A stretch of 4,350 nucleotides of DNA, taken from the IMG/VR virus record IMGVR_UViG_2706794668_000012; one strand, 5' to 3'. The position numbers were made by a program. This DNA is from a virus. Lineage: Duplodnaviria > Heunggongvirae > Uroviricota > Caudoviricetes. Every line of letters starts with the position of its first letter. Position 1 is the stretch's first letter. This document shows positions 1 through 3,000 of the stretch, one piece after another.

Positions 1-3000
1 ATGTCGTCGGTAATGTGTGATGGTCTGTTAGTGGGTAATGCCGAAATTATTCCGTTCAGTCCGCGCAGGTATCTTTATCACGCCTATCTGGCATATATGA
101 GGGCACACGGATTCGGTAAACCTGTAACACTGACGCGCTTCGGTAAAGATATGCCGGGGGCAATGGCGGAATATGGCAGGGAGTATATGAAACGGAAAAC
201 GAAGCACGGTTTGCGTTCAAATGTGACCCTGACAGAGGATTCAGAAGACTGGATGCCATCATGTGCAATAGGTCACAAATGACGATGGAAAAAATTAAAC
301 TTATGGAATAACTGTTCACCACTGTTCACCCTGCAATAAATGTCTTTTATATCAGTATATTATAGGGTGAACAGTTATTTATGAACTGTTCACCAAACTA
401 TTCACTGTTCACCTTTTTGATTCTTTATTGAGCTTTAAGGGTGAACAGTGGTGAACAGTTGGTGAATAGTTTTTGTGAAACTGTTAACCCATTAACATCA
501 TGAATAAAAAGGGAAAATTGCAAAAGGTGAACAGGTGAAGGGTTAAAATGCAAAAATTTTATTTTATTGCTGTGAGGTAAAGCCTGTGACAACGAAGCAC
601 GCCAAAAAACCACAATCTCACGCCCTTGATTTGACAGAACACTGGCTGAGGGTGGCGATAAAAATCATCGACCGCAACGCCGGGGAAGGATACGCGAAAG
701 CACATCCCGAACTGATAAGCGCATTCATGACCACGACGGCGGCAAACTTTGCCACGCTGACAGAACGGGAGATTGCCGAAGCGGAACAGGTGACAACCAT
801 CAACGTTAAAACCGGAGAGCAGACAGCATGACAGCACAGATAGCGGCTTACGGGCGGCTGGTGGCTGACCCGCAGTTAAAGACCACCAGCAAGGGTACGC
901 AAATGACGATGGCGAGTATGGCGGTTCCCCTGCCGTGCAGCCAGGCAGATGACGGAACGGCGACGATATGGTTATCCGTCCTGGCGTTTGGCAGACAGGC
1001 TGACGCACTGGCAAAGCACCAGAAAGGCGAGCTGGTGAGCGTGGCGGGTAACATGCAGGTAAGCCAGTGGACAGGCCAGAACGGAGAAACGCGGCAGGGC
1101 TGGCAGGTTATCGCAGACAGTGTAATCAGTGCCAGAACGGCGCGACCGGGCGGTAAAAAAGGCCAACAGGGGCAGGCCACTGATGCACTGAACAGGGCCA
1201 AACAACAGGCGGGGAATGATGATCCGTACGGGGATAACATACCGTTTTAAGCAACGAGTGACAGAAGCCGGAGCAATCCGGCTTTTTTGTAGGTACTCCT
1301 GGTGGGGGTGGCCTGTCCACGGGGCGGGCGGTTCGCGGAAAAAGGCGTATTTTTTGATTTTTATGTCACCATCACCACCAGTTTAAGTTATTGATATATG
1401 GCAAAATAAAAATTTTTAGTGTCGAATTAGGTTGTTTTTTGTTCGACGCCGGAACGTTCCCGAAAGCATTTACAAAAAACAGGCGCAAAAAAAAGCGCCC
1501 CGATGGTGCCACCGGAGGCGCTTTGTCAGCGACAAAGGATACTGCCACTACCGAAATGATGAGTCTTAATTGTGCTGGCTTGGCAATAATTAGTCAATTC
1601 TTTTGCTGGTATGACAAAAATCAGAAAACACATAATCTGATTTTTAGATAGAAAATGATTTATTTACCAGTTTTATCGATCAATAATGATGCCCGTTAAT
1701 CATAACGGAGGCAGACTTATGCCAGAGAACAACAGCAGAAAACCGGATAAAAGTGCAACAGTGCACATAGACGCCGGAACTATGGAGAAGCTCGAACGCT
1801 ATCAGCAGTTCATTAAAAGTCATCACCCTGGAATGCCAGTACCCACGAAAGGGCAGATTGCGAGAAGCGCGGTTGAATACTGGTACAGGGCAACGTTAGG
1901 AGCCTGGCTATGAAAACATGGTTTTCCATTAAGGCTATGGCTGATGTTGTACATGTACGCATTTATGACGAGATCGGCGGGTACGGTGTAAAAGCATCGG
2001 CACTTACTGACGAGATCAACGCGTGCGGTAATGTGCCTGAAATCCATCTTCGCATCCATTCACCTGGTGGCGACATCTTTGAAGGGCTGGCTATCTATAA
2101 CGCCCTGAAAAATCATCCGGCAAAGAAAATTGTACACATTGAAGGCATGGCGGCTTCTATGGCCTCGTTTATTGCCATGTGTGGCGATCACATCGTTATG
2201 CCTGAAAACGCGATGATGATGATACATGCCCCCCGTGGTGTTACTGCCGGAGTGTCGGGCGACGTTCGCCGCTTTGCTGACCTGATGGACAAGCTGGGCG
2301 ACACGATGGCGGAAACCTACGCCGGAAGAACGGGCAGGAGCAAACAGGAAATCACCGCCATGATGGAGGCGGAAACCTGGATGGATGGCAATGAGTGTAA
2401 GGCTAATGGCTTCGCAGATGAGGTTATACCCGCGATTACAGCAATGGCCAGAATTGAATCAAAACGAATCGGAGATTTTTCGAATATGCCGGAAAATATT
2501 AAAAGCATGATCAGCCAGAAAACTGGCAGCGGAGAACAGGAACGACTCAACGGGATACGTGAATTGTTTGGCACGTTCAATGGAAGATATAACGACCTGG
2601 CTATAAGTTGTCTTGCTGATTCAGGCTGTAGCGTTGAGGATGCACGCGAACGCCTTTTACTCACTATGGGTAAAGAATCGACACCGACAAACAAAACCAC
2701 CCCCGCAAATCTTTACTACGCGTACACGGATAACGGCAACATAACCGGCGATGCAATGCGTCAGGGGCTTAATGCGCGTCTGGGACATGAACAGGCAGAA
2801 CGCGGCAACCCTTACGCCATGATGAGCCTTTTCGATATGGCACAGGCATCATTAACCCATCGCGGCATAAGCACAGGCAGCTACAGCACACGCTCGCAGA
2901 TAGTAAACGCGGCATTCACCCACAGCAGCAGCGATTTTACTTATATCCTTGCTGGTGGTGCTGAAAAATCCGTGAACACAGCGGCGAAACGTTCCGCCAG

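What the first reader, a model, noticed from the sequence alone, without database searches (positions are those of the whole stretch)
311..540. Dense bidirectional TGTTCACC iteron array with a perfect 22-bp inverted repeat
Eight perfect octamers plus at least four degenerate copies lie in about 230 bp immediately after the primase gene. Copies 311-332 and 438-459 are exact reverse complements flanking an AT-rich stretch (333-365) and internal iterons. TGTTCACC is, to my knowledge, the P4 type I iteron bound by the alpha protein at ori and crr, so this is likely the replication origin or a cis replication region. The promoter for the downstream gene pair probably overlaps it.
Basis: partly seen in the sequence, partly recalled or inferred. 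Interest (0 to 1): 0.5.

Follow-up and report, generated by a model that had tools for sequence, protein, structure and literature searches.

The report
Replication origin of an E. coli PICI
The repeat cluster is real and is very probably the replication origin of a phage-parasitic chromosomal island (PICI) of E. coli; this kind of origin is already described, here using the same 8-base protein-binding repeat (iteron) as satellite phage P4.

Summary
Eight exact TGTTCACC octamers (0.2 expected) and four degenerate copies lie at 313-541, directly after the stop codon of a P4-alpha-like replication gene. The perfect 22-nt inverted repeat is also there.

The upstream ORF is homologous to the solved origin-binding domain of P4 alpha (PDB 1KA8, E=1.5e-22). 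TGTTCACC is the annotated "ori type 1 repeat" of P4 ori and crr.

The window is a Gram-negative PICI of the EcCICFT073/EcCI224 family. For that family, an iteron origin directly 3' of pri-rep has been described, and it was functionally tested in EcCICFT073. A 94%-identical copy lies inside the published EcCI224.

The twelve sites form two inverted six-iteron modules. Module A copies the iteron layout of the P4 ori core. Module B resembles a P4 crr unit. This layout is kept across at least six genera, where iterons are conserved and spacers drift. Relatives with other iterons differ at one short segment of the binding domain.

The claim of an overlapping promoter is not supported. Neither replication nor protein binding was tested here. 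Interest is low to moderate because the kind is known.

The parts
1..282 (+). Last 93 codons and stop codon of the island's P4-alpha-like replication protein, annotated 'DNA primase family protein'. This part is the C-terminal winged-helix origin-binding domain.
   Evidence: PDB 1KA8 (P4 alpha origin-binding domain) E=1.5e-22 over residues 6-86. The full-length homolog in L001 is 50% identical to P4 alpha residues 320-776. Pfam finds D5_N, DUF5906 and Pox_D5.
283..312 (.). A+T-rich outer left flank of the origin (73% A+T).
   Evidence: It is among the least stable 25-mers (289-313).
313..413 (+). Module A, with six iterons: 313-320 +, 323-330 +, 366-373 -, 387-394 +, 399-406 + (degenerate TATTCACT), 406-413 +. 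Offsets are 0, +10, -53, +74, +86, +93.
   Evidence: The P4 ori core read on its reverse strand has offsets 0, +10, -53, +75, +86, +96. Module A is 74% identical to the P4 ori core.
331..365 (.). 35-nt A+T-rich spacer inside module A. It is the best candidate for the site of first strand opening.
   Evidence: 77% A+T. 340-364 is the least stable 25-mer of the window. P4 ori has a spacer of the same length, 35 nt, at the same place.
414..439 (.). Central 26-nt A+T-rich spacer, the centre of the dyad between the two modules.
   Evidence: 77% A+T. It forms the apex of the long hairpin when 283-585 is folded as a single strand.
440..541 (-). Module B, an inverted copy of the six-iteron module: 440-447 -, 450-457 -, 461-468 - (TATTCACC), 482-489 + (TGTTAACC), 526-533 -, 534-541 - (degenerate CCTTCACC). 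Its 36-nt spacer is 490-525.
   Evidence: Read on the minus strand the offsets are 0, +8, -52, +73, +84, +94. The tandem-pair spacing of 8-9 and the T-rich spacer resemble the P4 crr unit.
311..332 (+). Left arm of the perfect 22-nt inverted repeat. The partner is 438-459.
   Evidence: I1, I11, I12. The repeat is not perfect in relatives, so it follows from the iteron arrangement and is not a conserved element in its own right.
438..459 (-). Right arm of the perfect 22-nt inverted repeat.
542..585 (.). A+T-rich outer right flank (73% A+T), ending in the ribosome-binding region of the next gene.
   Evidence: 544-568 is the second least stable 25-mer of the origin. An 'atattttttaattttat'-like stretch is conserved in relatives.
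586..831 (+). 81-codon ORF of unknown function directly after the origin, overlapping the start of the SSB gene.
   Evidence: Annotated as a hypothetical protein in RefSeq homologs. No Pfam or NCBIfam hit.
828..1250 (+). Island-encoded single-stranded-DNA-binding protein (SSB), a likely accessory of the replication module.
   Evidence: Pfam SSB PF00436, E=3.9e-16. The gene order pri - ori - small ORF - ssb is the same in EcCICFT073.

Best explanation
Window 283-585 is the vegetative replication origin of an E. coli phage-inducible chromosomal island (PICI) of the EcCICFT073/EcCI224 family.

The proposed mechanism has five steps:
1. The twelve TGTTCACC-type iterons are binding sites for the C-terminal winged-helix domain of the island's own P4-alpha-like SF3 helicase, encoded immediately upstream.
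2. The sites form two six-iteron modules in inverted orientation. Each module has a tandem pair, a 35-36-nt A+T-rich spacer, one inverted iteron and then three iterons.
3. Module A has the layout of the P4 ori core. Module B has the position, orientation and spacer character of a P4 crr unit. The PICI therefore carries in one ~260-bp dyad what P4 keeps 4.5 kb apart.
4. After helper-phage induction the initiator is made and occupies the iterons, plausibly as one hexamer per module. An A+T-rich spacer then melts, most likely 340-364, and the helicase is loaded in both directions.
5. Host polymerase, and probably host primase together with the island's SSB, then copy the excised circle.

What is shown here: the array and its statistics, homology of the binding domain, identity of the iteron and of the layout with P4, conservation across genera, and membership of a PICI family whose origin region was functionally tested in a relative.

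What is inferred: binding by this protein, the hexamer stoichiometry, the melting site, and the ori/crr equivalence.
For: - Array statistics: 8 exact copies against 0.2 expected, all within 221 nt. In the complete 96.8%-identical island the only cluster is this one.
- Binding domain: the upstream ORF matches 1KA8, the P4 origin-binding domain, at E=1.5e-22. The full protein is 50% identical to alpha residues 320-776.
- P4 annotation: TGTTCACC is the 'ori type 1 repeat' in ori and crr, and crr lies directly 3' of alpha.
- Layout: module A offsets are 0, +10, -53, +74, +86, +93. P4 ori offsets are 0, +10, -53, +75, +86, +96.
- Conservation: the same two-module layout follows the homologous gene in Citrobacter, Klebsiella, Raoultella, Pectobacterium, Serratia and Pantoea. 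Iteron columns are far more conserved than spacers: 0.93 against 0.76, 61/95 against 33/134 invariant, p=1e-12.
- Specificity: relatives keep the layout but use TGTCTACC, TGTCCGCC, TGTCCACC or TCTCCACC. Their binding domains differ mainly by a 4-5-residue insertion at one spot. P4 and an Erwinia P4-like element are distant overall but share both the TGTTCACC iteron and the uninserted segment.
- Published function: Gram-negative PICI origins are described as iteron sets flanking an A+T-rich region 3' of pri-rep. Plasmid replication by EcCICFT073 pri-ori was lost on deleting pri or ori (PMC6092414). EcCICFT073 has the same gene order and layout.
- Published member: EcCI224 carries a 94%-identical copy with 9 exact iterons at the same offsets.
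- Dyad: 283-585 folds as one long hairpin, z=-6.35.
- Opening site: 340-364 is the least stable 25-mer in the window.
Against: - Nothing was tested experimentally for this iteron variant. The functional test in the literature used EcCICFT073, whose iteron is TGTCTACC.
- The original papers showing that alpha binds type I iterons could not be retrieved. That step rests on established knowledge and on the title of the 1KA8 paper.
- The PICI protein lacks the zinc-ribbon and Toprim primase domains of alpha, so priming must differ from P4.
- The correspondence of iteron type to binding-domain segment is partly confounded by shared ancestry. EcCICFT073 itself has no insertion yet uses TGTCTACC.
- The module B to crr equivalence rests on short sequences (spacer identity 0.53-0.75). 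The window's own module A is the least clear case for the A-to-ori equivalence.
- This copy of the island is decaying: it has a frameshifted capsid gene.
Confidence: 0.85

Rival explanations
1. The array is only a crr-like cis-acting enhancer of replication. The true initiation site lies elsewhere in the island, as in P4, where ori and crr are 4.5 kb apart.
For: In P4 the iteron region directly 3' of alpha is crr, not ori. Module B resembles a crr unit in position, orientation, tandem-pair spacing and spacer composition. A P4-like Erwinia element has a single crr-like module at this place (L035).
Against: The complete, near-identical island has no second cluster of iterons. Module A reproduces the six-iteron layout of the P4 ori core and is 74% identical to it. 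In EcCICFT073 the pri gene plus this downstream region sufficed for plasmid replication.
Confidence: 0.05
2. The array is mainly a transcriptional operator. The sites let the initiator, or another island protein, control a promoter for the downstream ORF and ssb pair. Any replication role is secondary.
For: The array fills the whole intergenic region up to the ribosome-binding site of the next gene. Iteron-binding initiators of plasmids often autoregulate; this is general knowledge and was not tested here.
Against: No sigma-70 consensus promoter was found on the + strand in 200-620. No terminator separates the initiator gene from the downstream genes, so they can be co-transcribed. Gram-negative PICIs are described as transcribed unidirectionally from the alpA region. 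Twelve sites in a dyad of two six-site modules that matches P4 ori is more than an operator needs.
Confidence: 0.05
3. The essential feature is DNA secondary structure. A cruciform or single-strand hairpin formed by the inverted repeats would act as a structure-dependent initiation signal, and the octamers as such would not be protein-binding sites.
For: There is a perfect 22-nt inverted repeat. The whole 303 nt folds as one long hairpin of -50.3 kcal/mol, z=-6.35.
Against: The 22-nt repeat is not perfect in relatives, while the octamers and their spacing are kept. Changes between relatives replace the octamer in all copies at once (TGTCTACC, TGTCCGCC and others) together with changes in the binding domain. 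That pattern is expected for protein recognition, not for pairing alone. The arms are 105 nt apart, which is unfavourable for cruciform extrusion (inference).
Confidence: 0.03

Closest known systems
Replication origin of Gram-negative PICIs (EcCICFT073 family; Fillol-Salom et al. 2018, ISME J, PMC6092414)
   Same: - It lies directly 3' of the pri-rep gene, with iteron sets around A+T-rich DNA.
- The island gene order is the same: int, alpA-type regulator, Icd-like, DUF4222, pri, ori, small ORF, ssb, capsid-related genes.
- The two-module layout is the same in EcCICFT073.
- A 94%-identical copy lies in the listed PICI EcCI224.
   Different: The iteron here is TGTTCACC. The functionally tested EcCICFT073 uses TGTCTACC, and its binding domain is correspondingly divergent. 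I could not see the paper's Figure 2a, so I cannot say whether this iteron variant is drawn there.
Satellite phage P4 ori (NC_001609, 9310-9413)
   Same: - The iteron TGTTCACC is identical.
- Module A has the same six-site layout, to within 3 nt, and the same 35-nt A+T-rich spacer.
- Sequence identity is 74% over 104 nt.
- The binding domain is homologous.
   Different: - P4 ori lies upstream of the alpha operon, 4.5 kb from crr, and has three type 2 repeats nearby. No type 2 repeats are present here.
- Here the module abuts the 3' end of the initiator gene and is paired with an inverted second module.
- P4 alpha carries zinc-ribbon and Toprim primase domains that the PICI protein lacks.
Satellite phage P4 crr (cis replication region, NC_001609, 4291-4590)
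   Same: - It lies directly 3' of the alpha-type gene.
- It has type I iterons.
- Module B shares with a crr unit its orientation relative to the gene, a tandem-pair spacing of 8-9 and a T-rich 35-36-nt spacer.
   Different: - crr is two direct 120-bp repeats of five iterons each, separated from alpha by a terminator.
- Here there are two inverted ~100-bp modules of six iterons and no terminator.
- One of the inner iterons has the opposite orientation in crr.
Dyad-symmetric origins of viral SF3 helicases (SV40 large T antigen, papillomavirus E1)
   Same: An SF3 helicase with its own origin-binding domain acts on an origin with two-fold symmetry flanked by A+T-rich DNA. This is a functional analogy drawn from general knowledge.
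   Different: There is no sequence relationship of the sites. Double-hexamer loading is not shown for P4 alpha or for PICI initiators. This is an analogy only.

Membership tests
Gram-negative PICI replication origin | Lies immediately 3' of the pri-rep (initiator) gene | tested here: met
   The stop codon is at 280-282 and the first iteron at 313. The arrangement is the same in L001, L003, L005 and L148.
Gram-negative PICI replication origin | Two sets of iterons flanking A+T-rich DNA | tested here: met
   Modules are 313-413 and 440-541. Spacers are 75-77% A+T.
Gram-negative PICI replication origin | Sits in an island with PICI gene content: int, alpA-type regulator, pri, capsid-related genes, no tail or lysis genes, ~11 kb, integrated at a specific site | tested here: met
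   The 96.8%-identical island in RM10410 lies between pgrR and mppA. EcCI224 is in the published list. The window itself shows pri, ori, ssb and the protease-capsid fusion.
Gram-negative PICI replication origin | Supports initiator-dependent autonomous replication | not testable with these tools
   Shown only for EcCICFT073 pri-ori on pKO3-blue (PMC6092414).
P4 ori | Type I iteron TGTTCACC, six copies in the layout 0, +10, -53, +75, +86, +96 | tested here: met
   Module A has 0, +10, -53, +74, +86 (degenerate), +93.
P4 ori | Three type 2 repeats (YCAYTTAAAG) next to the iterons | tested here: not met
   No match in 283-585. The single one-mismatch hit at 1810 is at chance level.
P4 ori | Located upstream of the alpha operon and separated by kilobases from a second cis element (crr) | tested here: not met
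   There is a single compact array 3' of the gene and no second cluster in the island.
P4 crr | Directly 3' of the alpha gene, with type I iterons | tested here: met
P4 crr | Two direct repeats of 120 bp | tested here: not met
   The two modules are inverted, not direct.
P4-alpha-type initiator (the presumed binding protein) | C-terminal winged-helix origin-binding domain and SF3 helicase core | tested here: met
   1KA8 at E=1.5e-22. D5_N, DUF5906 and Pox_D5 are found, with 50% identity to alpha 320-776.
P4-alpha-type initiator (the presumed binding protein) | N-terminal zinc-ribbon plus Toprim primase domain | tested here: not met
   Absent from the 605-residue homolog. Its first 144 residues hit nothing in Pfam, NCBIfam or PDB.
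P4-alpha-type initiator (the presumed binding protein) | Sequence-specific binding of the domain to TGTTCACC | not testable with these tools
   Inferred from homology, from the identical iteron, and from the correspondence between iteron type and one segment of the domain.

The most novel reading that the evidence does not exclude
The PICI origin may be the compact, possibly ancestral form of P4's split origin. On this reading each six-iteron module loads one hexamer of the alpha-type SF3 helicase, and the inverted pair sets up two helicases for bidirectional replication. P4's puzzling need for crr 4.5 kb from ori would then reflect the same two-module requirement, met by DNA looping.

A corollary follows from the shared iteron and shared wing segment of the binding domain. 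P4-like satellites and this PICI family, which is present in about 12% of complete E. coli genomes, could fire or titrate each other's origins.
Probability: 0.3. Interest if true: 0.5.

Novelty: already known. Interest (0 to 1): 0.25.

Why it matters
The region is an unannotated but functionally central element of a very common E. coli mobile island: 669 of 5426 complete genomes carry it, and none of the records inspected annotates it as an origin. Knowing its exact anatomy helps in three ways: delimiting PICIs, building PICI-based replicons, and predicting which satellites can cross-activate or compete. The comparison with P4 also offers a simple, testable reading of why P4 needs a second cis element. 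The kind of element and its role are nevertheless already in the literature.

Tried and rejected
- A full-text search for the octamer returned only unrelated primer sequences.
- The classical P4 papers (Ziegelin 1993 and 1995) are not held in the library.
- A single-sequence AlphaFold model of the 93-residue domain was unusable (mean pLDDT 39.9). Placing the variable segment at the wing tip therefore remains an inference from the usual winged-helix topology.
- The consensus scan found no + strand sigma-70 promoter and no terminator between the initiator gene and the array.
- No DnaA box within one mismatch in 251-620.
- No P4 type 2 repeats.
- No Rfam family or tRNA in the window.
- I guessed that EcCICFT073 sits at the same chromosomal site as the RM10410 island. 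That was wrong: it lies at ycfD-phoQ.
- Most ~50%-identical P4-like loci from Pantoea and Erwinia have a terminator and no array within 450 nt of the gene. They could not be used for the layout comparison.
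Full report

Yes. Exact TGTTCACC occurs eight times in the 4350-nt window, and all eight copies lie between 313 and 533. Four are on each strand. Shuffled sequence gives 0.20 copies on average and never more than 2.

One-mismatch copies lie at 461 (-) and 482 (+). Two-mismatch copies lie at 399 (+) and 534 (-). In related elements these four positions hold exact or near-exact copies, so twelve sites is a fair count.

All eight exact copies share CTGTTCACC, and seven share ACTGTTCACC.

Segments 311-332 and 438-459 are exact reverse complements.

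The stretch 331-365 is 77% A+T. It holds the least stable 25-mer of the entire window, at 340-364.

The array begins 31 nt after the stop codon (280-282) of the ORF that runs in from the left edge.

**2. What surrounds it?**

The 93 codons at 1-282 match the solved origin-binding domain of P4 alpha (PDB 1KA8) at E=1.5e-22.

The window is 96-99% identical in this part to many E. coli chromosomes. In strain RM10410 the complete element is an ~11-kb island between pgrR and mppA. Its genes are an integrase, a small HTH regulator, an Icd-like gene, a DUF4222 gene, a 605-residue 'DNA primase family protein', then the array, a small ORF, ssb, a ClpP-protease/major-capsid fusion and a last small ORF.

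That is the gene order of EcCICFT073, the prototype Gram-negative PICI.

A 94%-identical copy of the array lies inside EcCI224, which is listed in Table S1 of Fillol-Salom et al. 2018. It has nine exact iterons at the same offsets.

The same initiator-plus-array module also occurs in a capsid-forming island deposited as 'phage vB_KppS-Ant'.

**3. Anatomy**

Relative to the first iteron, the sites lie at +0, +10, -53, +74, (+86), +93 and then -127, -137, -148, +169, -213, (-221). There are therefore two modules.

Module A (313-413) has four parts:
- a tandem pair of iterons;
- a 35-nt A+T-rich spacer;
- one inverted iteron;
- three more iterons.

Module B (440-541) is the same arrangement on the other strand.

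The whole 303 nt folds as one long hairpin when treated as a single strand, with z=-6.35. This is another way of seeing the dyad, whose centre is near position 427.

It is best seen as a side effect of the iteron arrangement.

**4. Comparison with P4**

The annotated P4 record marks TGTTCACC as 'ori type 1 repeat'. There are six copies in ori and five in each of the two 120-bp crr repeats. crr lies directly 3' of alpha.

Module A and P4 ori:
- Read on its reverse strand, the P4 ori core has sites at 0, +10, -53, +75, +86, +96. This is the layout of module A to within 3 nt, with the same 35-nt spacer.
- Module A is 74% identical to it over 104 nt. That is about as close as module A of one genus is to module A of another.

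Module B and a P4 crr unit share four things:
- position after the gene;
- orientation relative to the gene;
- a tandem-pair spacing of 8-9 instead of 10;
- a T-rich spacer, with spacer identity 0.69-0.75 for this window.

The A-to-ori match is strong. The B-to-crr match is suggestive only, because the sequences are short.

P4's type 2 repeats are absent here.

**5. Evidence that the sites matter and who reads them**

Sixty-two genomic loci encoding relatives of the binding domain were fetched.

All ten with at least 63% identity and a TGTTCACC array show the array directly after the gene. Apart from two lone exact octamers, there are none in the ~4.8 kb of flanks. They come from Citrobacter, Klebsiella, Raoultella, Pectobacterium, Serratia, Pantoea and an Enterobacterales MAG.

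In an alignment of ten such regions, iteron columns are much better conserved than spacer columns:
- mean major-allele frequency is 0.93 against 0.76;
- invariant columns are 61/95 against 33/134;
- Mann-Whitney p is 1e-12.

Other relatives keep the layout but use different octamers:
- TGTCTACC in EcCICFT073, an E. ruysiae element and a Scandinavium element;
- TGTCCGCC in three Serratia elements;
- TGTCCACC in one element;
- TCTCCACC in one element.

Their binding domains are otherwise very similar. They differ by a 4-5-residue insertion and substitutions at one spot, where the window reads ...KRKTKHG-LR.... By the usual winged-helix topology this should be the wing tip.

P4 and an Erwinia P4-like element are only ~50-56% identical overall. 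They share both the TGTTCACC iteron and the uninserted K-x-x-T-K-x-G segment.

This correspondence supports recognition of the iterons by this domain. It is partly confounded by shared ancestry, and EcCICFT073 is an exception: it has no insertion yet uses TGTCTACC.

**6. Function**

Fillol-Salom et al. [quoted passage not shown] They showed that an EcCICFT073 pri-ori fragment maintains a temperature-sensitive plasmid at the restrictive temperature. Deleting pri or ori abolishes or strongly reduces this.

The complete near-identical island has no second iteron cluster. This single array must therefore serve as the origin, and not as a P4-style remote enhancer.

The most likely mechanism is as follows:
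1. After induction the initiator binds the twelve sites through its C-terminal domain.
2. An A+T-rich spacer opens, with 340-364 the best candidate.
3. The SF3 helicase is loaded.
4. Host enzymes and the island's SSB complete replication.

Six sites per module matches a hexameric helicase, and the inverted pair suggests loading in both directions. That step is inference.

**7.

No + strand sigma-70 consensus promoter was found in 200-620, and there is no terminator after the initiator gene. P4 and the Erwinia P4-like element do have a terminator there. Co-transcription of the downstream ORF and ssb with the initiator is therefore at least as likely as an internal promoter.

The 'primase' aligns with alpha only from alpha residue 320 onward. 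It lacks the zinc-ribbon and Toprim domains. Its first 144 residues match nothing in Pfam, NCBIfam or PDB. Priming may therefore depend on the host.

**8. Novelty**

The kind of element is known. A close relative was functionally tested, and a 94%-identical copy sits in a published PICI.

Two things may be new:
- The module layout is explicitly identical to the P4 ori core, and module B resembles crr. [quoted passage not shown]
- The iteron type corresponds to one short segment of the binding domain.

Both are modest comparative points. I could not view Figure 2a of that paper, so I cannot say whether the TGTTCACC variant is drawn there.

**9. Verdict**

The feature is real and correctly read by the first stage as an origin-type iteron array. 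It belongs to a known kind. Interest is low to moderate (0.25). A more interesting but unproven reading is that PICI origins unite what P4 has split into ori and crr.

Noticed in passing
window 1264-1340: After ssb there is a terminator-like hairpin (gaagccgga-gcaa-tccggcttttttg, 1264-1288). It is followed by 'tttgtaggtactcctgg...ccacggggcgggcggttcgcgg'. This resembles lambda cosQ (TTTACGGGTCCTTCC) and cosN (ACGGGGCGGCGACCTCGCGG) as printed in Fig. S5 of Fillol-Salom 2018. It is probably the island's cos packaging site, at the same relative place as EcCICFT073 cos1.
   Followed up: partly
L001 12480-12911 (upstream of the window; the same gene ends at window 282): The PICI 'DNA primase family protein' lacks the zinc-ribbon and Toprim primase domains of P4 alpha. 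Its first 144 residues have no Pfam, NCBIfam or PDB match. Whether it primes at all is open.
   Followed up: partly
window 2960-2990 and 3721-3986: Relative to the intact 1890-nt ClpP-protease/major-capsid fusion gene of RM10410, the window has a 13-nt deletion near 2975. The deletion splits the gene into two frames, 1910-3055 and 3019 onward. A run of 266 N masks 3721-3986. This copy of the island is probably defective for its capsid gene.
   Followed up: partly
window 199-225 (codons for KRKTKHGLR) and homologs L015-L021: One short segment of the origin-binding domain carries a 4-5-residue insertion (PDKGR, ATRGR, PSKGN) in elements whose iterons are not TGTTCACC. The C-terminal motif W-x-P-x-C also becomes W-L-P-A-A in those elements. 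This segment is a candidate specificity determinant.
   Followed up: partly
L013 2791-2900: An Enterobacterales MAG element closely related to L014 has a collapsed origin. Module A is joined directly to the last iteron of module B (+0, +10, -53, +74, -83), as if ~130 bp had been lost between iterons.
   Followed up: no
L021 about 2590-2650: The binding-domain gene of this element carries a tandem expansion encoding (AYM)n inside the conserved helix YLYHAYLAYM.
   Followed up: no
window 1340-1685: This is a long non-coding, partly very A+T-rich stretch between the cos-like site and the next ORF. It has two terminator-like hairpins on the minus strand (1481-1517) and the second least stable DNA of the window near 1640-1666. 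No Rfam family matches it.
   Followed up: no
E. coli genomes: The 303-nt origin region is found in 669 of 5426 complete E. coli genomes (813 places, up to 6 per genome). In the 20 records listed, the only annotated feature under the match, where there is one, is the end of the primase-family gene. None marks an origin.
   Followed up: partly
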